In this document: in pieces, positions 9,756-27,665 of the stretch
Position numbering within the stretch: position 1 is the stretch's first letter
Layout: each line of letters starts with the position of its first letter
Assembly: GCA_903850725.1 (NCBI GenBank)
Contig: CAINMG010000121.1
Location: 1-29,427, forward strand
DNA: 29,427 nt
Reading direction: 5' to 3'
Source of the DNA: Candidatus Staskawiczbacteria bacterium
Lineage (GTDB): Bacteria > Patescibacteriota > Minisyncoccia > Minisyncoccales > Staskawiczbacteraceae
The notes under the pieces: generated by a model
Told to the model about the DNA's origin: nothing
What the model saw: the letters and a program-made list of their open reading frames with translations, nothing else
Databases searched by the model: none
Program-made: the position numbers and the translations under genes

Positions 9756-10868
9756 TTATTTGAATTTTAATTTTGTTCCATATACATAACCTGCCAATGG
9801 ATTCTTGCCACCTCTAATATCAAAATGTAAATGGCACCCAGTTGATTTGCCAGCTCCGGCCATGCCTTTACCCCCACCAACAAGTCCAATTCTATCCCCA
9901 GTCTTTACAACATCTCCTGGTTTTACAAAAGCTGTCATAAAATGTCCATAATATGAAACTACTCCATTTGGATGTAATATCGTGATATAATTTCCACCGC
10001 CCAAATTCCAGCCATAAGCCACCCTTTGAACTGTACCAGAAGCTGCAGCATAAAACGGAGTTCCACATTTATTTGCCACATCCACTGCATTATAGAAATG
10101 CAACCTTTGGCTTATTGTCCCCTCAACAGGAATTATAAAGAAGTTGTTGGCAATAGGAGCCTGAGCATTTGAAGGTACTGGTTTTGGTGGCATAACTCCA
10201 CCTGGAACAATTAAAATATCTCCAATGAATATATCATTTTCATTATTAAAATTATTATAAGAAACTATATCATCTACTTTTGCCTTGTAAGTCTTAGCAA
10301 TATCTGAAATAGTATCTCCAGACTTTACTATATGTAAAAGCCCTGAAACTGGCAATATTATTAAAGTTTGACCAACTTTCAGTGTAGAATTTTTAGTTAA
10401 ATTATTTGACCATAATATAGTATTTAAAGATATGTTAAAGTTTTGAGCAATTGATTCAAAAGTATCTCCAGGGAGAACTGAATATTCTACAATTTCTTTT
10501 GAATTTTGTGATTCTTCTCCAAAAATTGCTCCCAAAACTTGAGTACTCAAAACTCTATAAGATGAATTACCACATACGCAATTATCATCAATTATTTTTA
10601 GATCTGGGACCTCTAAAGCTAAAATATCTTTAGAGTTTAGAAACAAGCTATCTTTTGTTGAATTGTCCGTACCTTCAAGATAAGAATTTAAAAAAACACT
10701 CTTATTTTTTAAAGTATCATTAAAATTAGAAAAATCTTCAAATCCGAAACAAACGAATGCAAATAAAAAGGTTGAAAACAACCCAAAATAAAACAAAGGA
10801 TTCTTTAAAACCCCCTTAAGTCCAGTTTTTTTTCGCTTATTTTTTGTAGAGAAATTGAAGATTCCCAT
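9756..10868 (-). CDS. membrane-anchored LysM x2 + M23 peptidase (MepM/NlpD-like)
   Basis: N-terminal TM; YSVLPGDTFESIA and HIVKSGDTISDIA LysM repeats; canonical M23 order H(FYNAV)D...YYGH...HLHF. Confidence 0.92.
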   Translation of the reverse strand: MGIFNFSTKNKRKKTGLKGVLKNPLFYFGLFSTFLFAFVCFGFEDFSNFNDTLKNKSVFLNSYLEGTDNSTKDSLFLNSKDILALEVPDLKIIDDNCVCGNSSYRVLSTQVLGAIFGEESQNSKEIVEYSVLPGDTFESIAQNFNISLNTILWSNNLTKNSTLKVGQTLIILPVSGLLHIVKSGDTISDIAKTYKAKVDDIVSYNNFNNENDIFIGDILIVPGGVMPPKPVPSNAQAPIANNFFIIPVEGTISQRLHFYNAVDVANKCGTPFYAAASGTVQRVAYGWNLGGGNYITILHPNGVVSYYGHFMTAFVKPGDVVKTGDRIGLVGGGKGMAGAGKSTGCHLHFDIRGGKNPLAGYVYGTKLKFK

Positions 10869-10920: not shown

Positions 10921-12225
10921 ATGGATTTAACCTCACCTACAGCAATAAAAGAGATTTTAGAAAAATATGAAGTCAAACCATCCAAAAGCTTGGGTCAAAA
11001 TTTTTTGATTGATAAAAATATTTTAAACAAAATTATTTTAGCTGGAAATTTAACAAAAGAAGATGTTGTTTTGGAAGTGGGGCCAGGTGTTGGCACTCTT
11101 ACTTGTGAGTTGGCAAAATCTGCAGGCAAAGTAATTGCCATAGAAAAAGATCATGATATGATAAACATTTTAGCAGAAACTTTAAAAGATTTTAACAATG
11201 TACATATAATAGAAGGCGATGCCTTATCCCTAAACCCTATACCATATACCCTAGACCATAAATATAAGCTAATCGCCAATATTCCCTATTATCTTACCTC
11301 TCACTTAATCCGAACTTTTCTAGAAGCAGAAAACCCTCCCCAAGAAATTGTTTTGCTTATTCAAAAAGAAGTAGCTCAAAGAATATGTGCCAAGCCCCCA
11401 GAAATGAGCTTGCTTGCAGTATCTGTGCAATTTTACGCACAAGCAAAAATTATTTCTTATGTTTCTAAAAACTGTTTTCTACCAGCTCCCAAAGTTGACT
11501 CAGCCATAATTCGCATCACCCCTCATAAAAATGATCGACTCCCGATGTCGATCGGTTTTACGCCAAAAGAATTTTTTAAAATAGTGAAAGCTGGATTTTC
11601 ACATCCTAGAAAGCAGTTGGCAAATAATTTTTGCCAAGCTTTAAAGGTGGAGAGAGAAGTAGTAGAAAGTTGGCTTTCAAAATGCGGTCTCAAACCCAAT
11701 CAGCGCGCAGAAACTCTATCAGTAGATGATTGGAAAAATCTTGCCTCTTACGACCTATCCCTAGCCCTTCCCGAAGGGAAGGGGGTGACGACAAGTCCTT
11801 CCTGTTGGGAAGGATCTAGGATGGGTAGCGAGGGATGGGTGAACGAAACGAAGGGATCCGACATACCTGGTTATTTTACAACTGATGCAAAAACATGGAA
11901 ATTACTTCAAGAAGAAGCTGTTAAAATGAGAAAAAATCCAACAAAAGCAGAAGAAATTCTTTGGAAATATTTGAAAGCAAATAAAAATTACCATTTTAGG
12001 AGACAACAGATTATTGATAAATTTATAGTTGATTTTGTGTGCCTATCTAAAAAAATAATTATTGAGGTTGATGGCAATATTCATAATTTACAAAAACAGA
12101 GAGATGAGGGGCGAACAAAAATTTTAGAAAATCTTGGTTTTAGAGTTTTAAGATTTAAAAATGAAGAAGTCATAGACAATGTAGATATTGTTGTCAGAAA
12201 AATTATAAATACGACCCAACCCTAA
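10921..12225 (+). CDS. rsmA: 16S rRNA dimethyltransferase RsmA/KsgA fused in-frame to a C-terminal DUF559 (Vsr-like) endonuclease
   Basis: KSLGQNFL, VLEVGPGVG, AIEKD, GDAL, ANIPY, PAPKVDS; then MRKNPTKAEEILW, FRRQ, FIVDF, IEVDGNIH, DEGRT, LRFKN (DUF559 pattern). Confidence 0.93.
   Translation: MDLTSPTAIKEILEKYEVKPSKSLGQNFLIDKNILNKIILAGNLTKEDVVLEVGPGVGTLTCELAKSAGKVIAIEKDHDMINILAETLKDFNNVHIIEGDALSLNPIPYTLDHKYKLIANIPYYLTSHLIRTFLEAENPPQEIVLLIQKEVAQRICAKPPEMSLLAVSVQFYAQAKIISYVSKNCFLPAPKVDSAIIRITPHKNDRLPMSIGFTPKEFFKIVKAGFSHPRKQLANNFCQALKVEREVVESWLSKCGLKPNQRAETLSVDDWKNLASYDLSLALPEGKGVTTSPSCWEGSRMGSEGWVNETKGSDIPGYFTTDAKTWKLLQEEAVKMRKNPTKAEEILWKYLKANKNYHFRRQQIIDKFIVDFVCLSKKIIIEVDGNIHNLQKQRDEGRTKILENLGFRVLRFKNEEVIDNVDIVVRKIINTTQP
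11228..11257. repeat. four heptad repeats (CCCTAAA/CCCTATA/CCATATA/CCCTAGA) inside rsmA
   Basis: Direct reading; TATACCCTAGAC (11245-11256) is the exact reverse complement of part of the 20871-20898 unit. Confidence 0.6.
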
Positions 12226-12404: not shown

Positions 12405-12722
12405 ATGAGATTAGAACATTATTCAGAGGAAAAATTAAAAAAAGAAATTTTGGAAATTGTTGGCAAAAAACTTGATTTAAAAAAATACAAGGTGTTTTTC
12501 TTTGGGTCAAGAGTTCGTGGCGATAATTTCGAAAGAGCAGATATTGATTTGGGCATAGAAGGACCTAAAGAAATTGATTCTATGGTGTGGACAGAAATCG
12601 AAGAAGAAATAGAAAAAATCCCGACACTTTATAAAATAGATTTTGTTGATTTTAAAGAGGTAGGAGAAAATTTCTATAACATTGCAAAACAAAATATTGA
12701 AATTTTAGAACCTGCAATATAA
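12405..12722 (+). CDS. minimal nucleotidyltransferase (MNT; MntA-like antitoxin)
   Basis: FFGSRVRGDNFERADIDLGI = GS...DxD motif; KIDFVD C-terminal motif; 105 aa. Confidence 0.88.
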   Translation: MRLEHYSEEKLKKEILEIVGKKLDLKKYKVFFFGSRVRGDNFERADIDLGIEGPKEIDSMVWTEIEEEIEKIPTLYKIDFVDFKEVGENFYNIAKQNIEILEPAI

Positions 12723-12740
12723 TTTATAATATATAAAAAT

Positions 12741-13112
12741 ATGACAGAAAATTATCTTTTACAAGATTTTAAAAAAACTATAGACAACCTTGACGAAGTA
12801 TTAAACATGAAAGAAGAAAATATAGTTCGCGATGCGGCCATGAAACGCTTTGATTTGTGTTTTGATACAGCATGGAAATTAGTAAAAAATCTAGCTAAAA
12901 AAGAGGGCATAGAATGTTACTCTCCACGCCAATGTTTCAAAGTTGGTTTTCAGTTAAAATTGCTTGGCCATGATAGCGAATGGGTAGATATGTTAGAAGA
13001 TAGAAATTTGTCTGCACATTTATATAAAGAAGAAGAGGCAATAAAAATTTATACCAGATTACCAGAATATTTAAAATCATTCAAAAAACTATTAATTGAG
13101 GCAGAAAAATAA
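12741..13112 (+). CDS. HEPN / nucleotidyltransferase substrate-binding protein (HepT-like toxin)
   Basis: RDAAMKRFDLCFDTAWK, SPRQCFK, RNLSAHLY (Rx4H); directly downstream of the MNT gene. Confidence 0.85.
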   Translation: MTENYLLQDFKKTIDNLDEVLNMKEENIVRDAAMKRFDLCFDTAWKLVKNLAKKEGIECYSPRQCFKVGFQLKLLGHDSEWVDMLEDRNLSAHLYKEEEAIKIYTRLPEYLKSFKKLLIEAEK

Positions 13113-16039: not shown

Positions 16040-17182
16040 TCAGATGCTTTTGAAGTCGGCATCGGACATATTTCCTCTTTTGTCGTCCTTAGCTTTTTTC
16101 GACTTCTTGCCGCCGCCTCCACCACCGCCGACGAGAAGACCAGCTCCATCGCCACCAATGACCACAGTTGTGGCTCTCTCAAGCCCCTTAACATGAGTCT
16201 GGCGGTAACCTGGCGTTTTGGCCAAAGCCCTCTGACGAAGTTCTTCTTGCTTCTCCTTGATCCGCTGGGGCGTTGCTTTTGGATTATCAGCCAACCATGC
16301 CTTCAAGGCTTGATTGGTGTCGTCAAACAAAGCAGCGCTTGCTTGAGCTTCCTTGCCAGCAAGGGCAATCCGCTCTTCGGCAGCCATTGTCAGATATTCC
16401 ACCTCAACCTTTTCTTGCATTGCTGAGTCAATTTTCTCTGGCACAGCAATGTCTTCAATCCGAATTTTGACTTCGCCCCTACCAGGCTTGAAGTTTGTCT
16501 TGTCATTCCCAAGAATACCTGAAGTGGCGAACAACCCATCCTCAAGTAGAAAAAACTCTTTTGCTTCCTTGTTTACATCAGTGAGATTTGACCGCTCTAT
16601 CGCTTCTTTGTGCGTATATGCAGCCATAATATCACGCAAACCAGTGACCATCTCACTTGTTACCCACTTGTCAAAGGCTGCCATATTAAAGGGCACTTTC
16701 GACTTGATCATCAGAGCAAGAGACTCTGGCTCGAGATACGGGAATACCACAAAGCCAGAGAAATTAACAAGCAAAGGTACCTTGTCGCTTGATCTGATTT
16801 TGTGACCAACATCTCCGCCAAGAGTGAATTTCATCGGTTCTCTTGGAACTCGAACAAGCTCACAATACGGTCTTCCGTAGATCCACTTGTAAAGCGGAAT
16901 CCACAGCACGGTAACTGGGCCAGGCTGATAAATCTCGCTTTCGTCCAATTTACCAGTATAACTCTTGAGAGCTACTTCCTCTGGACCGATGTTGTCTTTT
17001 GATTTGATGAGAATCCTGATCCCAACAGAGACCACAACAATCAAATCAAAGACGAGGATTCCGATGCCGATGCCAAGCGCCCACTTCGAGTCGTTCCAAA
17101 AGGAACCAACCACGAGGGCGATAGGCAGGATGACCAGTAAAACAAACAAAATCGCGACCAGAACTTGCAGAAAAGCCTTCAT
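16040..17182 (-). CDS. membrane-anchored SPFH/Band-7-like protein with Gly/Lys-rich tail
   Basis: Two N-terminal TMs, IGPEEVAL...GKL...PG...IP, IRSSDKVPLLVN, then a helical region; AAGGAG RBS before ATG 17182; visibly higher GC than neighbours. Confidence 0.7.
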   Translation of the reverse strand: MKAFLQVLVAILFVLLVILPIALVVGSFWNDSKWALGIGIGILVFDLIVVVSVGIRILIKSKDNIGPEEVALKSYTGKLDESEIYQPGPVTVLWIPLYKWIYGRPYCELVRVPREPMKFTLGGDVGHKIRSSDKVPLLVNFSGFVVFPYLEPESLALMIKSKVPFNMAAFDKWVTSEMVTGLRDIMAAYTHKEAIERSNLTDVNKEAKEFFLLEDGLFATSGILGNDKTNFKPGRGEVKIRIEDIAVPEKIDSAMQEKVEVEYLTMAAEERIALAGKEAQASAALFDDTNQALKAWLADNPKATPQRIKEKQEELRQRALAKTPGYRQTHVKGLERATTVVIGGDGAGLLVGGGGGGGKKSKKAKDDKRGNMSDADFKSI

Positions 17183-17288
17183 CAAAAATCTCCTTCGCTT
17201 TAGCGGAAAACAGTGACTGAACTGATATTCAATTGTCAAGGAACGACCCTGACTTTCTTGCCTGAAAACAATTTCAAGCTACAAATTA

Positions 17289-17397: not shown

Positions 17398-17928
17398 ACA
17401 GATTTACACAGATGCCAAACAGATTAACACAGATCACAGATAAAAATATGACTGATGAAAATTTCTTAGAAAAAGATTTGTCTTACAAGGTTATTGGCGC
17501 AATTTATTCAGTTGCTAATAAATATGGATGCGGTTTAAAAGAGATTGTTTATCAAAAAGCTTTAGCAGAAGAGTTTGAAAAATTGCAAATAAATTGCGAA
17601 CAACAAAAAAGAATTAATATTTATTCTTTAGATAGTGGAAAAGTTTTAGGAGTCTATATCCCAGATTTTCTTATAGAGAACAAAATTATTTTAGAAATAA
17701 AAGCCACGCCATTTACTACTAGACAAAATATTGAGCAACAAAGATCTTATTTAAGAGCTAGTCAATATGAAATTGGGTATTTAGCAAACTTTAATACAAT
17801 AAAATTAGAAATTAAAAGATCAATTTTTACAAATAATAGAAAATCATTTATAACATTAATTTCAAAAACACAAAGTTAGCCAGCATCTGTGATCTGTGAA
17901 AATCTGTCATTTATCTGTGCTAATCTGT
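17398..17928 (+). mobile_element. GxxExxY cassette bounded by 44-bp mirrored (C)ACAGAT / ATCTGT(G) arrays
   Basis: Five units per side with mirror-identical spacers, at 17398-17441 and 17885-17928. Mobility is inferred. Confidence 0.6.
17448..17879 (+). CDS. GxxExxY protein (PD-(D/E)XK nuclease-like family)
   Basis: GCGLKEIVYQKAL = GxxExxY; YIPDFLIENKIILEIKA; GYLANF. Start set at ATG 17448, after the repeats. Confidence 0.9.
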   Translation: MTDENFLEKDLSYKVIGAIYSVANKYGCGLKEIVYQKALAEEFEKLQINCEQQKRINIYSLDSGKVLGVYIPDFLIENKIILEIKATPFTTRQNIEQQRSYLRASQYEIGYLANFNTIKLEIKRSIFTNNRKSFITLISKTQS

Positions 17929-17936
17929 GGCAGTGC

Positions 17937-18344
17937 ATGGAACAATATCCTATTCCACAATTTATTGAGCAAGAAGGGAAAATAGCATTTTTCATTTCTT
18001 TTAGACAATTCTTTTACCTTTGCGGGGGAGGAGTGATTTGTTTTGTTTTATACTATACAGTACCATTTGCAATATTTGCTATTTTGTCCCTAATTGTTAT
18101 GGTAGCAACTGGAGCCTTGGCTTTCTTGGTAATTAATGGCATGCCTTTGGCAAATATACTTTTAAGCTCTGTAGGATTTTTAGCTGGCAGTAAAAATTAT
18201 ACTTGGAAGAAAAAAGAATCTGCTTATCCATTTAAAGCTGTAAAAAGAATCCAAATTAGGAAAATAGATGAAGGCCCAAAACTACAAGCTCAAACAAGTA
18301 GACTTAAAAAAATTCACACACAAGTAGAATTAAGAAGTAAGTAA
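17937..18344 (+). CDS. prgI: PrgI-family membrane protein
   Basis: MEQYPIPQFIEQEGKI...SFRQFFYL, two TMs; start is the ATG just past the right repeat array. Confidence 0.85.
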   Translation: MEQYPIPQFIEQEGKIAFFISFRQFFYLCGGGVICFVLYYTVPFAIFAILSLIVMVATGALAFLVINGMPLANILLSSVGFLAGSKNYTWKKKESAYPFKAVKRIQIRKIDEGPKLQAQTSRLKKIHTQVELRSK

Positions 18345-18355
18345 ATTTAAAGCAA

Positions 18356-19021
18356 ATGGTAAACAATGCAACACAAGATTTTTTGGAAATAAAAGATATT
18401 AGGGAAGGAGTTATTATTTTAAAAAATAACTCCATTAGGGGAATACTTATGGTTTCCTCGCTTAATTTTGCTTTAAAATCTGAAGAGGAACAAACTGCTA
18501 TTATTTATGCATATCAAAGTTTTTTAAACTCTTTGGATTTTTCATGCCAAATTATAATTCAATCGCGCAAAATTAACATCACCCCATATTTAGATAGCTT
18601 GCAGGAATTAGAACAAAAGCAAACTACAGATTTAATGCGTCAACAAACAGCTAGCTACAGAGAGTTTATCAAAGAAATGGTTAGAGGGGACATGGTTATG
18701 ACTAAGAATTTTTATGTGGTTATACCTTATGAATTGATGGAAATTTTTGGAGCTTCGGGTGTTACCAAGCAATTTGATTTTTTAAAAAATATTGGGGGCA
18801 AAAAAAAAGAAACACAAGAAGTAAAAGATCAAGATTTTGAAAGATGCAAAACTCAACTTTGGCAAAGAATGGAATTTTTAGCTATGGGGCTTCGCAGGTG
18901 CGGTTTGGAAGCAATCCCTCTTACAACCCCAGAATTAATTGAACTTTTTTGGTCAATTCACCACCCAGAGCAAGCAGAAATTGGATATTACCCAGAAATA
19001 TTACCTGAGTTACTTAAATAA
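18356..19021 (+). CDS. VirB4/TraC-associated protein (TraC-like N-terminal family)
   Basis: SSLNFALKSEEEQ, FLNSLDFSCQIIIQSR, KNFYVVIPY; sits between prgI and the VirB4-like gene. Confidence 0.7.
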   Translation: MVNNATQDFLEIKDIREGVIILKNNSIRGILMVSSLNFALKSEEEQTAIIYAYQSFLNSLDFSCQIIIQSRKINITPYLDSLQELEQKQTTDLMRQQTASYREFIKEMVRGDMVMTKNFYVVIPYELMEIFGASGVTKQFDFLKNIGGKKKETQEVKDQDFERCKTQLWQRMEFLAMGLRRCGLEAIPLTTPELIELFWSIHHPEQAEIGYYPEILPELLK

Positions 19022-19039: not shown

Positions 19040-20857
19040 ATGGCATTTGATTTTATAAATAATTTAATGGAAAAAAAGAAAAAAGATGATTTATTAGACA
19101 AGATCTTTGAAGAAGAAGTTTTTGATGTACGCGATATTATTGCCCCACCTTATGTTGGTGTTGGCCAAGACCACATAAAACTTGGGGAGAGACTTTCCAA
19201 ATCATTTTTTATATTTTCTTATCCAAGATATTTAAACACTGGGTGGTTTTCACCTGTAATTGATTTAAATGTACCAATGGATATTTCCTTTTTTATACAT
19301 CCTGTTTCTAGTGAATTAATTTTAAAAAAATTAAGAAAGAAAATTACTGAAGTTTCTTCAGAAATAATTGAAAGAGAAGAAAAGGGCTTAATTCGCGATC
19401 CATCACTGCAAACTGCTTATCAAGATATTGAAAATTTGCGAGATAAATTAATGACAGCTCAAGAAAGAATGTTCAGGTTTGGTTTGTATATTACTATTTA
19501 TGACAATTCAGAAAAAGAACTAAGAGAAACAGAACTTACATTGCGATCAATCTTTGAATCAAGATTAATATATATTAAACCTGCATTATTCCGCCAAAAA
19601 GAAGGATTTATTTCTTGCAATCCTTATGGAATGGATTTACTTGATGTACATGTGCCCATGGATACAGAGACTTTGTCCACTGCTTTTCCATTTATTTCTT
19701 TTGACTTAAGTTCTAATGAAGGAATATTATATGGCATAAATAGGCACAACAATTCTTTAGTGCTATTTGATAGGTTTAGCTTGGAAAATGCCAACATGGT
19801 AGTGTTTGCAAAATCTGGTTCAGGAAAATCTTATGCTATAAAGCTTGAGATTTTAAGATATTTAATGCAAGGAGTAGATTGTATTATTATTGATCCTGAA
19901 AATGAATATGAAGCTTTAGCTGATTCAATTGGTGGAGCGTTTTTTAAGATTTCTCTGACTTCAGAAAATCATGTAAACCCTTTTGATTTACCTGTGCCAG
20001 GTCCTGGAGAAAATCCTGAAGATGTTTTAAGAGGAAACATTATCAACTTAGTTGGGCTACTTCGTATTATGCTTGGGGGCTTATCAGCAGAAGAAGATAG
20101 TATTATTGATGAGGCATTGACTCAAACTTATGCAATAAGAGATATTACTGCAACTTCTGACCCTGCAAAATGGAAAGAAAACACTCCTTTGATGTCGGAC
20201 TTTGAAGAGATTTTAAATAGCATGCAAGGAGCAGAATCTTTAGCCAGAAGACTTGGCAAATATACCAAAGGAACTTTTTCTGATTTCTTTAACCAAAAAT
20301 CAAATTTAGAAATGGATAAAAACTTAGTTGTATTTGGTATAAGAGATATGGAAGAGTCTTTAAGGCCAATGGCTTTGTACATTATAATGCGCTATGTGTG
20401 GAACATTGTAAGATCTCAAATTAAAAAAAGAATTTTAGTAATTGAAGAAGCTTGGCTTTTAATGCAATCTGAAGACGGGGCATCTTTCTTATTTGGATTA
20501 GCAAAAAGAGGTAGAAAATATTATTTGGGGGTTACCACAATTACTCAAGATGTAGCTGATTTTATGGGTTCTGAATATGGAAAAGCAATTATATCTAACT
20601 CTTCATTGCAACTTTTACTTAAACAATCACCAGCCACAGTAGAGGTTGTAAAACAAACATTTAATTTAACTGATCAGGAAAAATATTTATTACTTGAAGC
20701 AGGTGTTGGGGAAGGATTATTTTTTGCTGGTAAAAAACATGTGGCTATTTCTATTGTTGCTAGCCAAACTGAAGATAGAATTATTACAACCAATCCAAAA
20801 ATAGTTATGGAAAGAGGAGAAGCAAAAAGAAAAATAAACGAAGCAAAAAACCAATAA
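19040..20857 (+). CDS. virB4: VirB4-like ATPase
   Basis: NMVVFAKSGSGKS (Walker A), IIIDPENEY, VNPFD, ILVIEEAW (Walker B region), KRGRKY...TQD. Confidence 0.88.
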   Translation: MAFDFINNLMEKKKKDDLLDKIFEEEVFDVRDIIAPPYVGVGQDHIKLGERLSKSFFIFSYPRYLNTGWFSPVIDLNVPMDISFFIHPVSSELILKKLRKKITEVSSEIIEREEKGLIRDPSLQTAYQDIENLRDKLMTAQERMFRFGLYITIYDNSEKELRETELTLRSIFESRLIYIKPALFRQKEGFISCNPYGMDLLDVHVPMDTETLSTAFPFISFDLSSNEGILYGINRHNNSLVLFDRFSLENANMVVFAKSGSGKSYAIKLEILRYLMQGVDCIIIDPENEYEALADSIGGAFFKISLTSENHVNPFDLPVPGPGENPEDVLRGNIINLVGLLRIMLGGLSAEEDSIIDEALTQTYAIRDITATSDPAKWKENTPLMSDFEEILNSMQGAESLARRLGKYTKGTFSDFFNQKSNLEMDKNLVVFGIRDMEESLRPMALYIIMRYVWNIVRSQIKKRILVIEEAWLLMQSEDGASFLFGLAKRGRKYYLGVTTITQDVADFMGSEYGKAIISNSSLQLLLKQSPATVEVVKQTFNLTDQEKYLLLEAGVGEGLFFAGKKHVAISIVASQTEDRIITTNPKIVMERGEAKRKINEAKNQ

Positions 20858-20941: not shown

Positions 20942-21406
20942 GTGGCAAATGATGATGGAGGTATCACAGGCCCAGAAGGTGTCTTAATGCTAATGGTAGC
21001 CACGCTTTTAGATGGAATTGGATTAATAATTCTCTTTTTTGCTTTGGATGATTTTTGGATTTTAGATATTACGGGACTTTTACTAATTGGCACCTGGATT
21101 TTTTTTCGTACAGGACATGTATCTGCTACTGCCACAGCTAAAAAAACTGGCAAAAAATTATTGTCTCGTCTTGGACTTGGTCTTTTAATAGAAATTATTC
21201 CATGGTTTGGTGGACTTTGCCCTTCTTGGGTCATTATAGTCTGGCGAGAAATGAATGGAAAAAATGTTAAAGATACTAAAATACAATCTCAAAAGATACA
21301 AATGTCGTCTAACAGAGAACTAAGAGATGCTGGAATAAATGAGTTGAGACCAAATTGGAAAAATAAACAAACAAATGAAATTGAAGAGCCAGAAGAAGAA
21401 GTTTAA
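20942..21406 (+). CDS. hypothetical membrane protein of the T4SS-like locus
   Basis: GTG start; hydrophobic helices and an LIEIIPW motif; overlaps the next gene. Confidence 0.7.
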   Translation: MANDDGGITGPEGVLMLMVATLLDGIGLIILFFALDDFWILDITGLLLIGTWIFFRTGHVSATATAKKTGKKLLSRLGLGLLIEIIPWFGGLCPSWVIIVWREMNGKNVKDTKIQSQKIQMSSNRELRDAGINELRPNWKNKQTNEIEEPEEEV

Positions 21407-24400
21407 AAAAATATTATTACTTATAATCTTATCCACATTACTTTTGCCTGTGGCAGTTTTGGCTTTGGAAAATCAATACCCTGATATTTTAGGCAATGTA
21501 TTGCCTCCAAATCCAGATGTTGCAGATTATGTAGGTTATTTTGCAAATATTGGCATATCAATATCTTTAATTTTAGCTACGCTGGTTATTATTTTTGGAG
21601 GGCTTCAATATATTGTTTATGGTGCTTTGGGCAAATCTGGCGGGGAAGGTAAAGAATGGATAAAATCTGGAGTTTTAGGGTTGTTTTTATTGGTTTCTGC
21701 TTATACTATTTTAGCCACAATAAATCCTACATTAGTTAACCCAACTTTTGGAAAACTCTTAAACAACATTCCTTTTATTGATATACCTATTTCCGATTTG
21801 GTTAAGGGGCCTCCAATTACATATTACAAAGAAATCCCCATGGGCACTTTAACAGAAACTGTATTGTCTCGTAAAATTAGTTGCTATAAATATGATGACT
21901 TGGGAGATCCAATACAAGTACAAGTAAAAATTGACAGTGGTGGGAGTGCTTTTGGACCATCATATTTAGACCATGATAGAGTTGATTGTATGTTTGAACT
22001 TAACCAGGCAATTGAGAAAAAAACTAAAATAGTTAAAGACTTATCTATAAAAATAGCTCAATTAATGAATAGCTGTAACTGCCAAAAAAGCTCATCTGAA
22101 TCAACATCAACAACCCCACAAACTACATCCACAAATTGTACATCTACTGGTGATTGTCCAAGTCCAACTGGAGTAATAGAAGTTTGCGAAGAAGACGCTT
22201 ATTGCGGAAGACCGTTACCTTGCGATTGTTCTGGCTCTTGCGAGACAAATCCTGAAGAATTCGAAATGTGCGAAAAAGGAGTTAAAAAATTAGTAACTGA
22301 AGGCCCAATAGAAATTGGCGGGCTATTGGATTGGCCAGATTTTGTTGCCACTATTTTAGTGGGGCAAAATAATTTATCTGGCGGATTAATGACTTATACA
22401 GATTCCTTGTATAAATGTATGACATTATCTGATAAAATGCCAAAACTTAAAAAATATAAAGGCTTGCAAGAATTTGGCACAACACTAAATACACAAGGAG
22501 TTATCAAATTAATTGATACCAAAGTAAAATCTGAAGGAAGAGATGTTACATTAATGAATAAAACAAATTGGGATAATTTAAAGCTGGTAGAACAATTAAT
22601 GTATTTAAAAGAAAAATTAAGCGAGCTTACAACAACTCTAAGCCAAGACAATCAAAGATTGAGTCTAGCAAAAGAAGAATTACGTAAATGTTATTTGGCT
22701 ACACCTTATGTAGATTATTTAAAAGAATTAGAAAAAACCAAAAAAGAAGACCGCCTCTTAATGGTTCAAAAAAATTATAGTACTTTTGAAAATAAGCTTA
22801 CAGATATTTCTAAATATTGTAATGGTTTTGGTTATGCTAATTCAAGTTGTTTTTATAACTGCCAAAATGCTTGTCCATCTACAGATCCTGCATTTTTATC
22901 ATATATTCAAGATTGCAAAACACAAGATTGTGATTCTATTTGTGCGGAAAATACAATTGCTTGTCGTGCAAAGAAAAGCGCTTGCTTTATCAAAGAAAAC
23001 AATTGTTTGGCAGAACGATTACTTAGAAAAGAAACTTGTCCCAATGATAGTTCTGGGAATTTTGGAAACTTTGAAGAATGTATAGACTCTTGCCAAACAG
23101 AATGCAGTAGTGATTGCGAAACTAAATTTAAATCTTGTTCTGAAATTGATAAAGCTTGCAATGACTGTAGCAGTAAGTTAGATAAAGATTCAAATTTTCC
23201 TGGGGTTTGTAGTTCCATATCAAAAAAATATTGTTCTGATGAATTTGAAAAATGCCAAAATATTTGCAAAAATAACTCTCAGTGTATAATAAACAACAAA
23301 GAAAGCTGTATATATAGCCCACAAAATTTACTGGCTTGCGCAACTGAAAATACTGATAATGAAAACAAAAAATATTGTGTAGAAAATTCTGGTTTTACTT
23401 GTAAATATGGATCTTCACAGCAAGCGGGTTATGCTGATTGCCTAAAAAATCCTTATTCTTTGGGAAATAAATTTACTTCTTCTGAAATCTATAAAAACCA
23501 ATTTCAACAAAAATGTCCCGCACCATATTTAACAGATCCATCAAGTTCTTGTTATTCGTCATCCAGCCCAAATTCTTCTTGTATAGATGTTTGTCCTGAA
23601 GTTTCAAAGTGCCCATCTGCTTCTAACTGTCCAAAATGTCCATGCAATACAACAAGTATAGATACCAATCCATCAAATTTTAATTCAAAAGGAAAAGCTT
23701 TTTATAGTGTTTATGTGCATATGAAAAATATTAGTGTAACAATTGGGCAAGTTGTTAACCAAGGGGATATAATTGGACAAATAAGTAATATCGGAACAGA
23801 CACTGGGTCTCACTTACATTTTGCAGTTGGCTTTGAAAATGGCAAAACAGGGCTTGATGTGGCTACAAGTTTTGATATAAGTTCAAAGGTAACAGCTAGT
23901 GGAATGAGTGGTATTGGTAGTGGCTATACGGCGCCTTTGCCAACCTATGTAAATGAAAATTATAAAAATTATGTTTTAAATTCTTTGACACCTCCAGTAA
24001 ATACCAATCAATGCGACTGGAAACAAAATCCAGGCTCATATTTACACAACAATACCGCATCTTACGCCCAAGATTGGATTTGCAATAATGGATCCCAAGA
24101 AGGTAGCAATGTTCAAGTAATGGCTGGTGGGGATAATATAAAATCAACAGTCTCTGGAATAGTACCCGCAAGCGGAGCTGTAATAATAAAGCATGAAGTT
24201 AACGAAAATATATTGTCTTCATTAATAAATAGTATTATTTCTGATTATCAAATTGTTGGGGGAGAATGCCAAGAATATAAATATAATGATGATCCTTTGA
24301 CTTTTTATTGCAAACAAGATTGGTGGAATGAACCAGCGCTTCAAGCACAAGAGCCACTTGCTAATAGCTATATTTGCCCTAAAGAAAAAGAGATTCCTGT

Positions 24401-25100
24401 AGGTCAAGCAGTAGATGATACCCAATTTTGGGCTAAAAAACTCTCAGCTTATCAAAGTGATTTTGCCTTGAAAACAGATGAGCTAATTAATCATTTGATA
24501 AAAATATCAAAAGAAAAAGAATATTGTAAATGTGGCTCTACTTGCGGAAGTAGGAGCAGTGAAAAAACCTGCAATGCTCCTTGTGTGCCAGAGCTATTAA
24601 CAGACCCAGTTACTGGAGCAGAATCTTGTGTTTGTGCAAACCAAGGATGCCAAGGCAATCCTTGCCAATACATAATTAACTTATTAATGGGTAGTACTGG
24701 TGCATCATGTCCTAAAGGAGAAATAATAAAAGGCCCTTTGCAATTTTATAATGAACTAAAATCAAAATTAAAAACTATTTATGATTTTATGCAAATAAGC
24801 AGAACTGATATTATAAAAGAACTAATATATTCAAGGAAAACTATGAACACCTGTAGTGTAGAGAGTAAAGCCAATACTGTAGCAGAACAAACAAGGCTAG
24901 AGAGTTGTAGAAGAGTAAGAAATAATTTTGTATCCCCAATTGCAGATGACAAAACAACTATAAATAATCAAGAGATAAAATATCCATGTTATGGTGTTGA
25001 TTTAGGAGAAATTTATGGAGATACTTTTAGCTCATCAACAACAAAAGAACCTATAATACCAGAGACAGATAATTGGTTTTGCTGCGTGCCAAGAGATTAA
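21375..25100 (+). CDS. VirB2/TrbC-pilin-like anchored, Cys-rich giant protein with an internal permuted M23 peptidase
   Basis: Signal-like N-terminus (AVLA|LENQYP), two-TM pilin-like unit ending ATINPTL, ~70 Cys by manual count, M23 motifs at residues 777-940. Confidence 0.8.
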   Translation: MKLKSQKKKFKKILLLIILSTLLLPVAVLALENQYPDILGNVLPPNPDVADYVGYFANIGISISLILATLVIIFGGLQYIVYGALGKSGGEGKEWIKSGVLGLFLLVSAYTILATINPTLVNPTFGKLLNNIPFIDIPISDLVKGPPITYYKEIPMGTLTETVLSRKISCYKYDDLGDPIQVQVKIDSGGSAFGPSYLDHDRVDCMFELNQAIEKKTKIVKDLSIKIAQLMNSCNCQKSSSESTSTTPQTTSTNCTSTGDCPSPTGVIEVCEEDAYCGRPLPCDCSGSCETNPEEFEMCEKGVKKLVTEGPIEIGGLLDWPDFVATILVGQNNLSGGLMTYTDSLYKCMTLSDKMPKLKKYKGLQEFGTTLNTQGVIKLIDTKVKSEGRDVTLMNKTNWDNLKLVEQLMYLKEKLSELTTTLSQDNQRLSLAKEELRKCYLATPYVDYLKELEKTKKEDRLLMVQKNYSTFENKLTDISKYCNGFGYANSSCFYNCQNACPSTDPAFLSYIQDCKTQDCDSICAENTIACRAKKSACFIKENNCLAERLLRKETCPNDSSGNFGNFEECIDSCQTECSSDCETKFKSCSEIDKACNDCSSKLDKDSNFPGVCSSISKKYCSDEFEKCQNICKNNSQCIINNKESCIYSPQNLLACATENTDNENKKYCVENSGFTCKYGSSQQAGYADCLKNPYSLGNKFTSSEIYKNQFQQKCPAPYLTDPSSSCYSSSSPNSSCIDVCPEVSKCPSASNCPKCPCNTTSIDTNPSNFNSKGKAFYSVYVHMKNISVTIGQVVNQGDIIGQISNIGTDTGSHLHFAVGFENGKTGLDVATSFDISSKVTASGMSGIGSGYTAPLPTYVNENYKNYVLNSLTPPVNTNQCDWKQNPGSYLHNNTASYAQDWICNNGSQEGSNVQVMAGGDNIKSTVSGIVPASGAVIIKHEVNENILSSLINSIISDYQIVGGECQEYKYNDDPLTFYCKQDWWNEPALQAQEPLANSYICPKEKEIPVGQAVDDTQFWAKKLSAYQSDFALKTDELINHLIKISKEKEYCKCGSTCGSRSSEKTCNAPCVPELLTDPVTGAESCVCANQGCQGNPCQYIINLLMGSTGASCPKGEIIKGPLQFYNELKSKLKTIYDFMQISRTDIIKELIYSRKTMNTCSVESKANTVAEQTRLESCRRVRNNFVSPIADDKTTINNQEIKYPCYGVDLGEIYGDTFSSSTTKEPIIPETDNWFCCVPRD

Positions 25101-25135: not shown

Positions 25136-26515
25136 ATGAATAAAAAACAATTTATACTTTTTGCTGTAATATTATTTACTTTGCCTTTTTCTAATTTTGC
25201 TTTGGCTTTGGAAGCAAATTATCCAGCTATTCCAGGATTACCAATTATTGTGGCAAATAGCACAATACCTGAATTAATCCAATACTTTTTTGGAATAGGA
25301 ATATTGTTTTCTGGAGCTATTGCTTTAATTTCTTTAGCTTTTGCTGGAATACAACTAATAATAAAAGCTAATCCAGAAGGAGTGTCTAGTGCCAAAGATC
25401 GAATTAAAGGATCAATACTAGGCATAGTTTTAATAATGGTTTCTTTTCTAATAATGAAATCTATAAACCCTGTTTTAGTAGAACCGACTATTACACCATT
25501 AACATCTGGCCCAGGGATATTTCTTGTTAAAGGCGATAAAGAAACGGTCGCTACTATGGCATCTAATGTTAGCGGTATACCACAAGAATTTCAAGGTGGA
25601 GATATTGAATATAGATGCCCCAACCCTACAACAGATCCTGATTTATTAATTTGGCTTTATGATAATAAAAATCTTGATTCTTCTGGTTTTGTAGATACTA
25701 TAGAAGTAAAATGTCAGAATTCACATTCACTCCTTTCTATACCACCAGATGGATCTTATAAAATGGCTTATGAAACTCCTGGTATTTATATTTATAAAAA
25801 TACTAGCTGTACAGGTTACCGCTCCGATGTTATAACAACAAGTGGAGAAATCCCAGAAGAATTTAAAAAAAGACCGGCAACAGATCCATCTGCATCACCA
25901 GAATCTAGATGTGTTGAGTTTATAAATGATCTCGCAAATAAAATTTATTACGGCGCAATTTTACACTCAGTAATTGATGAATCAAAAGGAGGCACATGCC
26001 AAGCACCTCTTATATATACTCCATTAAAACCAAAAGGCATTGTACAAGTTTCTATTGATACATTTTCCTCAATTACTGTTGTCAATATAAATGATAATCC
26101 TAAAACCTCTGGCGATGGTATAATGTTTTATAGTAGTTCTTATGGCTGGGATACAGGAGCTAAAACTGGAGTTGCGGGGGTTATATTTAAAGAAGATAAA
26201 TATTTTGTCGGCGCAAGACCAGAAAATATCAAATTTCAAGATTTTCAAGAAAGCATGACCCCAGAAGAAATAGCAGTTTCTCAGAATTTTAGTATGCCAA
26301 GAGGTCAAGGATCAATGAGATTAAATGGCAACTTTTTAGTTGCTATTTATAGTACTGGCCCCGCCCCATCAACAACCTCACCAGCAACAAATATTCCTCA
26401 AAATGGTTATTGCCAAGTTTTTAAAAATAATGTTGTTGAATTTAAAGGGACAGAATTTAAATCAAAAGATGGGGGCCATAAAATTGAATATGTTTATATG
26501 ATTGCGACTAAATAA
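25136..26515 (+). CDS. pilin-like anchored ectodomain protein 2
   Basis: FALA|LEANYP, AKDRIKGSILG, KSINPVL; paralog of the next gene. Confidence 0.78.
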   Translation: MNKKQFILFAVILFTLPFSNFALALEANYPAIPGLPIIVANSTIPELIQYFFGIGILFSGAIALISLAFAGIQLIIKANPEGVSSAKDRIKGSILGIVLIMVSFLIMKSINPVLVEPTITPLTSGPGIFLVKGDKETVATMASNVSGIPQEFQGGDIEYRCPNPTTDPDLLIWLYDNKNLDSSGFVDTIEVKCQNSHSLLSIPPDGSYKMAYETPGIYIYKNTSCTGYRSDVITTSGEIPEEFKKRPATDPSASPESRCVEFINDLANKIYYGAILHSVIDESKGGTCQAPLIYTPLKPKGIVQVSIDTFSSITVVNINDNPKTSGDGIMFYSSSYGWDTGAKTGVAGVIFKEDKYFVGARPENIKFQDFQESMTPEEIAVSQNFSMPRGQGSMRLNGNFLVAIYSTGPAPSTTSPATNIPQNGYCQVFKNNVVEFKGTEFKSKDGGHKIEYVYMIATK

Positions 26516-26528
26516 TATTTTATAAAGA

Positions 26529-27665
26529 ATGAAAAAAGTAAATATAAAATTATTGATAATTTTATTGTGCGGACTGTTTCTTTTGTCTGGTGATTTTGCT
26601 TTGGCGGGGAAACTTGAAGTAAATTATCCAACTTCGCAATCAGGTATTAGTCTTATTGATACCAACACCCCTATACCTATATTTTTAAAATATATTTTTG
26701 ATATGGGTATGTTTTTAGGCCTTGCAGCTGCTGTATATAGCCTAGGATATGCTGGGTACTTATATTTAAGATCTGGCATGCAAGCGGAATATAGATCGCA
26801 AGCTAAGGATCGAGTTGTAGGAGCTATTACAGGGATTTTAATTTTGATGATGACTTATTTGATTATTACCACACTAAACCCACAGTTAAAGTTTTTTGAT
26901 ATGCCTACGCTTAAGGAAATGCCGCCTATTGCTCAAGAAAAAGCTAATGGTATATATTTTTTTAAAGAAGATGTGAGTAATGGTTGTACTGGAGAAGCTC
27001 AATCTTACACTTCAAATATAAATGATTTTGGAGAGCTAAATAATAAAATAAATTCTGTTTTAATTGTAAATAATGCAGGGGATTCTTATGTTTCAACAAT
27101 GTATTCAAGCCCTGGGCTTTTTGGTAAGTGCCAAGATATTGACCCAAACAATTATAATTGCCAAGCAGTAGATAAATTTGCAAGCTCAGCTTCAATACAT
27201 ATATATGATTTTAAGCCACAAAACAATCCTTATAATGATGGCGTATATTTTTATCGCAAACCATTTTACAACCCAGAAGGGGGCTTTATTAAAATAGATA
27301 ATAATCAAATAATAAATACTGATGGATTTTTTTCAGCAGAGCTTAAAGATTTAACTTTTCAAAATGTTCCCATAGAAGATAAAGTTTGTAATAAATGGGA
27401 TGAAAAAGGAGTTTGTATAGAAAAAAAAGACCCAACGCTTGCAGGTAAAGAAATATCTTCAATTAAAATTATGGGAAACTATATTATTTATTTTGTTTAT
27501 TTTGATCCAGAGGATAAGCCAAAAGGTCCATGGTCTTATTGCCAAGAATTTCCAACTCCAGATGATACAAATAGAGAAGGGCCAAAACAATTTAAGTGGG
27601 AAAAAACTCCAAACCAAAGGAATCTTGCAAATTGGGTTTATATTTACCCAGTAAAACAAAAATAA
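26529..27665 (+). CDS. pilin-like anchored ectodomain protein 3
   Basis: FALA|GKLEVNYP, AKDRVVGAITG, TTLNPQL; shares CTG, GxCQ, GVxFY, GNY/F and YCQxF motifs with the previous gene. Confidence 0.78.
   Translation: MKKVNIKLLIILLCGLFLLSGDFALAGKLEVNYPTSQSGISLIDTNTPIPIFLKYIFDMGMFLGLAAAVYSLGYAGYLYLRSGMQAEYRSQAKDRVVGAITGILILMMTYLIITTLNPQLKFFDMPTLKEMPPIAQEKANGIYFFKEDVSNGCTGEAQSYTSNINDFGELNNKINSVLIVNNAGDSYVSTMYSSPGLFGKCQDIDPNNYNCQAVDKFASSASIHIYDFKPQNNPYNDGVYFYRKPFYNPEGGFIKIDNNQIINTDGFFSAELKDLTFQNVPIEDKVCNKWDEKGVCIEKKDPTLAGKEISSIKIMGNYIIYFVYFDPEDKPKGPWSYCQEFPTPDDTNREGPKQFKWEKTPNQRNLANWVYIYPVKQK

What the first reader, a model, noticed from the sequence alone, without database searches (positions are those of the whole stretch)
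23697..24197. Circularly permuted M23 zinc peptidase inserted in a pilin-anchored Cys-rich protein
Seen: the C-terminal half of an M23 domain (YSVYVH782MKNISVTIGQVVNQGDIIGQISNIGTDTGSH813LH815F) comes BEFORE the N-terminal half (PPV...PGSYLH891NNTASYAQD900...GSNVQVMAGG...GAVIIKH940). The canonical M23 at 9756-10868 in this window shows the usual order (H..D, G-P-A-G-V, ITILH, YYGH, HLHF). The break falls in the hairpin between IIKH and YxxYxH, so the new termini would be adjacent, as needed for insertion into a loop. All three Zn ligands and the catalytic His appear retained. The segment is nearly Cys-free (2) inside a Cys-dense host. Inference: an active peptidoglycan hydrolase displayed on a T4SS-like pilus, possibly for breaching host cell walls. 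I know of no described permuted M23, but have not checked the literature.
Basis: partly seen in the sequence, partly recalled or inferred. Interest (0 to 1): 0.85.

Follow-up and report, generated by a model that had tools for sequence, protein, structure and literature searches.

The report
Circularly permuted M23 peptidase module
A large cysteine-rich surface protein of a tiny Patescibacteria cell carries a zinc cell-wall peptidase (M23/LytM type) whose two halves are in swapped order, a rearrangement I could not find described for this enzyme family and which probably let it be spliced into surface loops.

Summary
ORF 21375-25100 (+; 1241 aa) holds a ~170-aa module (aa 773-942) in which the C-terminal half of an M23 domain precedes the N-terminal half.

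- **Database hits:** Pfam, NCBIfam and PDB sequence searches see only aa 773-819, which match M23 profile positions 42-88.
- **Second segment:** aa 871-942 is too divergent for single-sequence detection. Its family profile lands directly upstream of the C-half in canonical M23 proteins.
- **Re-ordering:** the re-ordered family profile aligns continuously with a canonical M23 profile over 93 columns (score 159, against 138 +/- 1.4 for column-shuffled controls).
- **Conservation:** 27 modules from independent assemblies share the order, so it is not an assembly artefact. H782, H813, H815, H891, D900 and a Cys880/Cys903 pair are kept in 26-27 of 27.
- **Model:** AlphaFold gives one compact domain (pLDDT 90.5, pTM 0.89).
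- **Host protein:** the module is a facultative insert in a conserved, VirB2-like-anchored protein next to VirB4 in an origin-proximal T4SS-like locus. It occupies two different loops in different orthologues, and many orthologues lack it.

Catalysis, convergence of the zinc ligands in 3-D, and display on a pilus are untested. I rate it a new variant of a known kind.

The parts
21375..25100 (+). Host gene, 1241 aa: signal peptide, a VirB2-like two-helix membrane hairpin, then an ~1100-aa Cys-rich (70 Cys) extracytoplasmic region
   Evidence: ORF list and translation. The only hydrophobic segments are aa 9-34, 52-86 and 95-121. PF18895 T4SS_pilin matches aa 62-113 at 17.8 bits, below the gathering score; homologues P0004, P0044 and P0048 reach it.
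23691..24200 (+). Circularly permuted M23 module, aa 773-942
   Evidence: 27-member family alignment A4. AF2 model pLDDT 90.5, pTM 0.89. Re-ordered profile against canonical M23 scores 159.0 over 93 columns.
23691..23837 (+). Segment 1 = C-terminal half of M23 (aa 773-821), with catalytic H782 (nt 23718-23720), catalytic H813 (23811-23813) and zinc ligand H815 (23817-23819)
   Evidence: Pfam PF01551 profile 42-88. PDB M23 chains such as 5j1l and 2hsi match the same stretch. hhalign probability 99.5%. Conservation 26/27, 26/27 and 27/27.
23838..23984 (+). Family-specific linker (aa 822-870) joining the old C-terminus to the old N-terminus. It contains a conserved 'D.SF.I.S' strand and a helix at aa 861-869
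   Evidence: Alignments A3 and A4. AF2 secondary structure and a lower pLDDT of 75-84 in its middle.
23985..24200 (+). Segment 2 = N-terminal half of M23 (aa 871-942), with inferred zinc ligands H891 (nt 24045-24047) and D900 (24072-24074), the paired C880 (24012-24014) and C903 (24081-24083), and the closing 'VIIKH' strand ending at H940 (24192-24194)
   Evidence: The seg2 HMM's best non-family hits lie 7-11 aa upstream of the C-half in canonical M23 proteins. Repeated on 87 independent M23s: 40 adjacent against about 14 expected, p about 5e-11. hhalign P 0.0011-0.0013 in the correct register. Conservation and co-loss patterns.
22083..22448 (+). 'Site A' variable loop of the scaffold (aa 237-358), empty here. 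It holds the same permuted M23 module in orthologues P0007-P0012 and P0042, and a matrixin-like HELGH domain in P0035
17889..20857 (+). Upstream T4SS-like genes: PrgI/VirB3-like (17889-18344), TrsD/TraC-like (18356-19021) and VirB4-like ATPase (19040-20857)
   Evidence: Pfam and NCBIfam. Same gene order in locus L001 of orthologue P0007.
25136..27665 (+). Two further downstream genes (25136-26515, 26529-27665). The first has a T4SS_pilin-like N-terminus
   Evidence: PF18895 23.4 bits, and NCBIfam Mbov_0395 pilin-like 24.5 bits, both below their cut-offs.
9756..10868 (-). Canonical-order LysM-LysM-M23 protein of the same genome, used as an internal reference
   Evidence: PF01551 aa 259-357 matches profile 3-93; two LysM domains. 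Its two halves each hit Pfam on their own.

Best explanation
Residues 773-942 are a genuine circular permutant of an M23 (LytM/lysostaphin-type) zinc metallopeptidase domain. The chain starts at the 'Y-x-H' strand, runs through the HxH motif and crosses a ~50-aa family-specific linker. It then supplies the H...D motif and ends with the '..V-I-x-H' strand that normally precedes the 'Y-x-H' strand. The new ends therefore lie in what is a tight beta-hairpin in ordinary M23 domains, which makes the module insertable into a loop of another protein.

Here it sits in a hypervariable loop of a conserved, Cys-rich extracytoplasmic protein. That protein is anchored by a VirB2-like membrane hairpin and is encoded directly after VirB4 in the origin-proximal T4SS-like locus of a Patescibacteria genome.

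Shown: the permuted order, homology of both halves to M23, conservation of all five catalytic or ligand residues, the insert status, and the locus.

Inferred: the module binds zinc through H891, D900 and H815, with the extended H-x8-D loop stapled by a C880-C903 disulfide. It hydrolyses peptide cross-links of peptidoglycan at the cell surface. The more likely target is the envelope of the partner or host cell at the contact site. The less likely target is the cell's own wall, as a VirB1/PrgK-like assembly aid.
For: - Only the C-half is seen by Pfam, NCBIfam and PDB sequence searches.
- A profile of segment 2 finds, as its four best non-family hits, the stretch 7-11 aa upstream of the C-half in canonical-order M23 proteins. 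These are P0110, P0144, P0107 and P0109 (E 1e-4 to 5e-3 among 148 sequences).
- In 87 further independent M23 proteins, the best segment-2 hit is upstream-adjacent in 40, against about 14 expected (p about 5e-11).
- hhalign of the re-ordered family profile against a canonical M23 profile that excludes those four relatives scores 159.0 over 93 continuous columns. Segment 1 alone scores 133.3, reversed segment 2 scores 138.3, and 60 column shuffles give mean 138.1, sd 1.4, max 143.2.
- H782, H813, H891 and D900 are kept in 26/27 modules and H815 in 27/27.
- P0048 lost H891 and D900 together, and P0066 lost H782 and H813 together. C880 and C903 are both present in 26/27 and are lost together in P0049.
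- The AF2 model of the native module is one confident compact domain (pLDDT 90.5, pTM 0.89).
- Solved M23 structures (2b0p, 9gy1, 4bh5) superpose only on model residues about 8-105, as expected when order is swapped.
- Orthologues in the same syntenic locus carry the module at another loop or not at all.
- Context from papers: Patescibacteria T4SS loci lie near the origin and carry VirB2-like arrays. [quoted passage not shown] In one cultured species, cell-wall hydrolase homologues beside virB4 were found essential (PMC12102498; PMC12857230).
Against: - The motif-1 histidine is not at the canonical position (9 rather than 4 residues before the Asp), so its ligand role rests on conservation only.
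- No coordinates were available, so convergence of H891 and D900 on H815 could not be measured.
- Segment 2 alone gives no Pfam or PDB sequence hit. Profile-profile probabilities for it alone are low (5-20%).
- Re-ordering single sequences adds only 3-9 bits, within the range of shuffles.
- Many LytM domains are non-catalytic.
- Orthologues without the module exist, so it is dispensable for the scaffold.
- Nothing tested here bears on substrate or target cell.
- A 1241-aa protein is unlikely to be a polymerising major pilin.
Confidence: 0.7

Rival explanations
1. The module is a true permuted M23 fold but is not an enzyme. It would act as a peptidoglycan- or protein-binding (LytM-type regulatory or adhesive) domain on the surface protein.
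For: Many LytM domains (EnvC, NlpD, SpoIIQ) are non-catalytic; SpoIIQ and EnvC appear among the sequence and fold matches. The H...D spacing is unusual. Degenerate members exist in the family: P0048 and P0066.
Against: Known non-catalytic LytM domains have lost zinc ligands. Here all five residues are kept in 26-27 of 27 modules at 25-66% identity, and the losses come in functional pairs.
Confidence: 0.17
2. The enzyme is active but serves the cell's own wall. It would be a VirB1/PrgK-like lytic factor that opens the producer's peptidoglycan so the T4SS-like machine or its pilin-like proteins can cross it. This rivals only the target named in the best explanation; it agrees that the module is an active permuted M23.
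For: The gene directly follows VirB4. No VirB1-type gene is in the locus. PMC12102498 reports that most Patescibacteria with VirB2 homologues lack VirB1, and that some VirB1 homologues carry M23 or LysM domains.
Against: Syntenic orthologues lack the module. A separate canonical LysM-M23 gene is conserved nearby. One orthologue carries a matrixin-like protease in the same scaffold loop instead, which is not a peptidoglycan enzyme. This points to outward-directed cargo.
Confidence: 0.25
3. There is no permutation. A truncated M23 C-half would be followed by an unrelated beta-rich segment that merely completes a sandwich.
For: Segment 2 has no Pfam or PDB sequence hit on its own. Foldseek finds no full-length M23 match in PDB or BFVD.
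Against: Positional and profile evidence for homology to the N-half, in the right register. P0110, a canonical-order relative, has the same H-x8-D spacing.
Confidence: 0.05
4. The order is an assembly or frameshift artefact.
For: None found.
Against: It is one uninterrupted ORF. The same order is seen in 27 modules from independent assemblies and sources, at two insertion sites and in other architectures.
Confidence: 0.01

Closest known systems
Peptidase family M23 (Pfam PF01551; LytM, lysostaphin, ShyA, MepM, LasA)
   Same: The Y-x-H strand, the HxH motif, the Asp of motif 1, the 'V.A..G.V' and 'V.I.H' strands, and the barrel-sandwich ('hybrid motif') type of fold. It also sits in a secreted or surface cell-wall context.
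   Different: The halves are in reverse order, joined by a ~50-aa conserved linker. The motif-1 His is 9 residues before the Asp instead of 4. From memory, not checked here, LasA-type M23A enzymes also have long H...D spacing. A conserved Cys pair brackets the H...D loop. The module is inserted inside another protein rather than terminal.
Circularly permuted NlpC/P60 families (YaeF/poxvirus G6R and LRAT-like)
   Same: They are a precedent for a peptidoglycan-hydrolase superfamily in which catalytic residues are swapped in order by circular permutation (Anantharaman and Aravind 2003, as summarised in PMC6403190).
   Different: Unrelated fold and chemistry (Cys-His papain-like). They are not described as loop inserts.
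PrgK / VirB1-type cell-wall hydrolases of T4SSs
   Same: They are peptidoglycan hydrolases encoded in T4SS loci. From memory, PrgK of pCF10 has a LytM domain. PMC12102498 notes M23 and LysM domains on Patescibacteria VirB1 homologues.
   Different: Those are separate, canonical-order proteins with SLT or CHAP domains. Here the hydrolase is embedded in a VirB2-like-anchored giant surface protein, and no SLT or CHAP domain is present.
VirB2-like pilin arrays of Patescibacteria T4SS (PMC12102498; PMC12857230)
   Same: Origin-proximal, relaxase-less locus with PrgI/VirB3, VirB4 and several consecutive genes that have VirB2-like N-termini.
   Different: The described pilins are small proteins. This one has an ~1100-aa Cys-rich ectodomain with enzyme inserts. 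The papers I could read do not mention such fusions.

Membership tests
Peptidase M23 (PF01551 / MEROPS M23) | HxH motif (catalytic His and third zinc ligand) | tested here: met
   H813-L-H815 aligns to the profile's HLHF. Conserved 26/27 and 27/27.
Peptidase M23 (PF01551 / MEROPS M23) | Catalytic His on the Y-x-H strand | tested here: met
   H782 in 'Y-V-H-M' aligns to the profile's 'YAHL'. Conserved 26/27.
Peptidase M23 (PF01551 / MEROPS M23) | Motif 1, H-x3-D, giving the first two zinc ligands | tested here: inconclusive
   D900 aligns with the canonical Asp. The conserved His (H891) is at -9, not -4. Both are kept in 26/27 and lost together in P0048. Canonical-order P0110 has the same H-x8-D.
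Peptidase M23 (PF01551 / MEROPS M23) | Score above Pfam's gathering threshold | tested here: met
   39.7 bits against 28.7, but covering profile positions 42-88 only.
Peptidase M23 (PF01551 / MEROPS M23) | Canonical order: N-half (H..D) before C-half (HxH) | tested here: not met
   The order is reversed. This is the finding itself: it is a permuted variant, not a standard member.
Peptidase M23 (PF01551 / MEROPS M23) | Both halves form one M23 fold, with the three ligands around one zinc site | not testable with these tools
   The model is confident (pLDDT 90.5, pTM 0.89) but coordinates are not given. Sequential aligners match solved M23 chains only on the C-half. The zinc co-folding job was not run by the tool.
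Peptidase M23 (PF01551 / MEROPS M23) | Zinc-dependent endopeptidase activity on peptidoglycan cross-links | not testable with these tools
   Needs biochemistry.
VirB2-like T4SS pilin (PF18895 / PF04956) | Signal peptide followed by two hydrophobic helices | tested here: met
   Hydrophobic segments at aa 9-34, 52-86 and 95-121, and none afterwards.
VirB2-like T4SS pilin (PF18895 / PF04956) | Profile score above the gathering threshold | tested here: inconclusive
   P0001 scores 17.8 bits against 26.6. Homologues P0004 (26.7), P0044 (26.6) and P0048 (30.9) reach it.
VirB2-like T4SS pilin (PF18895 / PF04956) | Linkage to VirB4 and VirB3 genes | tested here: met
   PrgI, TrsD/TraC-like and VirB4-like genes lie directly upstream. 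The same order is found in L001.
VirB2-like T4SS pilin (PF18895 / PF04956) | Small subunit that polymerises into a pilus | tested here: not met
   The protein is 1241 aa with an ~1100-aa ectodomain. Polymerisation itself cannot be tested here.

The most novel reading that the evidence does not exclude
Patescibacteria T4SS loci encode a modular 'display scaffold': a VirB2-like-anchored, disulfide-rich ectodomain with two hypervariable loops. Alternative hydrolase cargos are spliced into these loops: the permuted M23 at either loop, or a matrixin-like protease at loop A. Circular permutation would be the enabling step that brought the M23 termini together so the enzyme could become a mobile insert. 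The cargo would be presented to, and would open, the envelope of the host cell during epibiotic attachment.
Probability: 0.25. Interest if true: 0.8.

Novelty: new variant of a known kind. Interest (0 to 1): 0.62.

Why it matters
M23 peptidases are among the best studied cell-wall hydrolases (lysostaphin, LytM, ShyA). Full-text searches of the held library found no paper describing a circularly permuted form. Current domain models annotate only half of this one, so such proteins are under-described in databases.

The case gives a clean natural example of permutation creating an insertable enzyme module. The same module sits in two different loops of orthologous proteins.

It also ties a probable wall-cutting activity to the T4SS-like apparatus. 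That apparatus is essential for epibiotic growth in the one Patescibacteria species tested genetically (PMC12857230, PMC12102498). This suggests a testable route by which these ultrasmall cells deal with their partner's, or their own, peptidoglycan.

Tried and rejected
- **Segment 2 alone.** Pfam on aa 865-945 and 820-960 gave no M23 hit. A 10-sequence profile of segment 2 against PDB sequences gave no hit at E<=10.
- **Single-sequence re-ordering.** Against a home-built canonical M23 HMM it gained only 3-9 bits, within the range of shuffles for single proteins. It became decisive only at profile level.
- **Fold searches.** Foldseek of the model against PDB and BFVD found nothing with E<0.1. 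VIA-align over 48,161 chains gave a best Z of 4.0, to barrel-sandwich or 'hybrid motif' proteins (NusG domain 2, NqrA, HlyD, EIIA-Glc). M23 chains matched only through the C-half.
- **Zinc co-folding.** The tool did not run the job, so it is no evidence either way.
- **'Natural de-permutation' test.** P0076 has tandem permuted modules, so its aa 195-400 read N-half, linker, C-half. I folded that stretch with alignment A7. The result was pLDDT 52 and pTM 0.40, which is unusable. MAFFT could not build a better alignment, because it stacks segment 2 on segment 1.
- **Short stand-alone permuted proteins.** Searches with the single module and with the A4 profile returned none, or only canonical M23 hits through the C-half.
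- **Phage records.** Only C-half matches were found.
- **Module tree.** The deep branches are unresolved. Site A and site B modules interleave (2-3 changes) without starred support, so no claim is made on the number of relocations.
- **Species-representative genomes.** The segment-2 profile was not found in 400 genomes of the phylum or 300 of the order, apart from the window's own genome.
- **Other.** Rfam found nothing in the window.
Full report
**1. What is there**

The finding lies inside one uninterrupted ORF, window 21375-25100 (+), 1241 aa.
- H782 in 'Y-V-H-M'
- H813 and H815 in 'H-L-H-F'
- H891 and D900 in 'L-H ... A-Q-D-W'
- H940 at the end of 'V-I-I-K-H'

Pfam's M23 model matches only aa 773-819, to profile positions 42-88 of 96 (39.7 bits; gathering score 28.7). 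NCBIfam models (Pgp3, MepM, ShyA/C, SpoIIQ) and PDB sequences (TagE, LytM, lysostaphin, ShyA and others) also match only that stretch, always to their C-terminal halves.

The genome's ordinary LysM-LysM-M23 protein (9756-10868, minus strand) matches profile positions 3-93 in the usual order. Each of its halves hits Pfam on its own.

The segment 766-946 has 2 of the protein's 70 cysteines.

**2. Is the downstream segment the missing N-half?**

Taken alone it is too divergent. There is no Pfam hit and no PDB hit with a 10-sequence profile. Four independent lines nevertheless say yes.

(a) *A conserved family.* Homologue searches gave 27 modules at 24-66% identity, with the same order: C-half, a ~50-aa linker, then the second segment (alignment A4).

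(b) *Position of segment-2 hits.* A profile of the second segment was searched against the canonical M23 proteins that had been picked up only through their C-halves.
- Its four best non-family hits are P0110, P0144, P0107 and P0109.
- All four lie 7-11 residues upstream of the C-half, which is where the N-half sits in the normal order.
- P0110 even has the same H-x8-D spacing.
- On 87 further canonical M23 proteins the best hit, individually insignificant, was upstream-adjacent in 40, against about 14 expected (binomial p about 5e-11).

(c) *Profile-profile comparison of segment 2 alone.* Against canonical M23 it gives P = 0.0011-0.0013 in the right register. Asp pairs with Asp, 'V..M.GG' with 'V.A.a.G', and 'V.IKH' with 'V.I.H'. 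The official tool with the smaller alignment gives P = 0.008 over the last 31 columns.

Alignment A5 (46 sequences) excludes the four close relatives.

| Query profile | hhalign score | Aligned columns |
|---|---|---|
| Re-ordered (segment 2 + segment 1) | 159.0 | 93, continuous through the junction |
| Segment 1 alone | 133.3 | 49 |
| Reversed segment 2 + segment 1 | 138.3 | 50 |
| 60 column shuffles of segment 2 + segment 1 | mean 138.1, sd 1.4, max 143.2 | mean 54 |

The native-order profile aligns with canonical M23 only over 54 columns of the C-half.

In ordinary M23 domains those strands are joined by a turn of a few residues. The new termini must then be neighbours, provided the fold is kept.

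**3. Catalytic equipment**

Across the 27 modules:
- H782 is kept in 26, H813 in 26, H815 in 27, H891 in 26, D900 in 26 and H940 in 27.
- The exceptions come in functional pairs. P0066 lost H782 and H813 together, and P0048 lost H891 and D900 together.
- The two cysteines of the module, C880 and C903, bracket the H...D loop. They are both present in 26 and both absent in P0049, and also in P0076. This fits a disulfide stapling that loop.

Its role as a zinc ligand is an inference from conservation and co-loss.

**4. Structure**

AlphaFold2 with alignment A4 gives a single confident domain that includes both segments (mean pLDDT 90.5, pTM 0.89; only the middle of the linker is lower).

Order-dependent structure searches behave as expected for a permutant:
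- Foldseek finds no M23 in PDB or BFVD.
- VIA-align finds LytM (2b0p), StM23 (9gy1) and EnvC (4bh5) only through model residues about 8-105.
- The top VIA-align rows (Z up to 4.0) are barrel-sandwich or 'hybrid motif' proteins, including EIIA-Glc aligned over 110-118 residues.
- One AFDB cluster (A0A523Z1Q5, 'Peptidase M23', 157 aa; TM 0.53/0.60) and one ESM-Atlas cluster (152 aa, PF01551 in 98% of members, mostly viral; TM 0.56/0.65) align over the whole model.

I could not retrieve the sequences of those two clusters. Whether they share the permuted order or match through the fold's internal pseudo-symmetry is open.

That pseudo-symmetry is visible in sequence. MAFFT stacked segment 2 on segment 1, pairing 'W..S.LH' with 'WYT.Y.H' and 'V.IKH' with 'HLHF'.

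The zinc co-folding job was not run by the tool. A 'natural de-permutation' fold of P0076 aa 195-400 was too poor to use (pLDDT 52).

**5. Host protein and locus**

The protein has a signal-peptide-like segment and two hydrophobic helices (aa 9-34, 52-86, 95-121), and nothing hydrophobic afterwards. The helices match T4SS_pilin weakly here (17.8 bits) and at or above threshold in homologues. The remaining ~1100 residues, with 70 Cys, should be outside the membrane.

Upstream lie PrgI/VirB3-like, TrsD/TraC-like and VirB4-like genes. Downstream lie two more genes, the first with a pilin-like N-terminus, and then jag-yidC-rnpA.

The orthologue P0007, on a 694-kb contig, has the same order followed by dnaA and dnaN. 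This is the origin-proximal, relaxase-less T4SS-like locus with VirB2-like arrays described for Patescibacteria (PMC12102498; PMC12857230). An earlier scan note (e1-5295342) says the same.

**6. The module is a movable insert**

The scaffold has invariant landmarks: 'LM..C.C', 'Y-K-G-L-D-E-F', 'C-P-x-C-P-C' and 'N-D-D-P-L-T-F-Y-C'.
- In P0001, P0004-6, P0037 and P0041 the module fills the loop after 'CPxCPC' (site B).
- In P0007-12 and P0042 it fills the loop after 'LM..C.C' (site A).
- P0013-P0034 have short or low-complexity loops at both sites.
- P0035 carries a matrixin-like domain (HELGH; PF00413 at E 1.3e-7) at site A.

The same module also occurs in other architectures of 400-3300 aa, some with T4SS_pilin N-termini or Ig-like domains, and in tandem in P0076. 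A tree of the modules does not resolve how often it moved.

It is rare. The segment-2 profile was not found in 400 species genomes of the phylum or 300 of the order, including 12 of the same family, other than the window's own genome.

**7. Mechanism**

I take the module to be an active zinc endopeptidase that cleaves peptidoglycan peptide bridges at the cell surface. Permutation would be what allowed it to become a loop insert.

A plausible origin is a tandem M23 array trimmed at both ends. Tandem arrays are abundant among the hits. This origin is inference.

For the target I lean towards the partner cell's envelope, for three reasons:
- The scaffold also hosts a non-peptidoglycan protease.
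- The genome keeps a separate canonical LysM-M23.
- Orthologues can do without the module.

A VirB1/PrgK-like role on the producer's own wall is a serious rival. Display on an actual pilus is doubtful for a 1241-aa subunit.

**8. Novelty**

Full-text searches for permuted M23 or LytM found nothing. The only related precedent found is the permuted NlpC/P60 families. The library lacks most subscription journals, so this is not proof of absence. I rate the finding a new variant of a known kind.

Noticed in passing
P0035 (homologue, aa ~340-520; scaffold site A): An orthologous scaffold protein carries a matrixin-like zinc protease segment (HELGHSLG; PF00413 E 1.3e-7, profile 102-159) in the same loop that holds the permuted M23 in other orthologues. 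The loops seem to accept different hydrolase cargos. P0016 and P0025-P0027 also have site A loops of 204-377 aa with unknown content.
   Followed up: partly
P0076 (462 aa, metagenomic): Two permuted M23 modules lie in tandem, separated by Ser/Glu-rich repeats. The second is cut off and followed by what looks like out-of-frame sequence. It lacks both module cysteines.
   Followed up: partly
window 23691-24200 (alignments A6 and A8): MAFFT aligns the N-half on the C-half of the module ('W..S.LH' with 'WYT.Y.H', 'V.IKH' with 'HLHF'). This is a sequence trace of the internal duplication of the M23 fold.
   Followed up: no
window 10921-12225 (+): The rRNA adenine dimethylase (RsmA/KsgA) is fused to a C-terminal DUF559 nuclease-like domain (434 aa). 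The syntenic gene in L001 is 272 aa without it. An earlier scan note (e1-5295341) describes repeats around this cassette.
   Followed up: no
window 16040-17239 (-): This 399-aa ORF has only a weak Band_7/SPFH match. It lies in a stretch of 48% G+C within a ~32% G+C window. A weak-Band_7 gene sits at the same syntenic place in L001.
   Followed up: no
AFDB A0A523Z1Q5; ESM-Atlas M23 cluster (152 aa, 51 members, 82% viral): These are the only structures that align over the whole permuted model (TM 0.53-0.65). They could be stand-alone permuted M23 proteins or pseudo-symmetric matches. The sequences were not retrievable.
   Followed up: partly
window 12405-13112 (+) and 17412-17879 (+): A nucleotidyltransferase / substrate-binding pair (a toxin-antitoxin-like MNT/HEPN-type pair) and a PD-(D/E)XK nuclease gene are interspersed in or next to the T4SS-like locus.
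   Followed up: no
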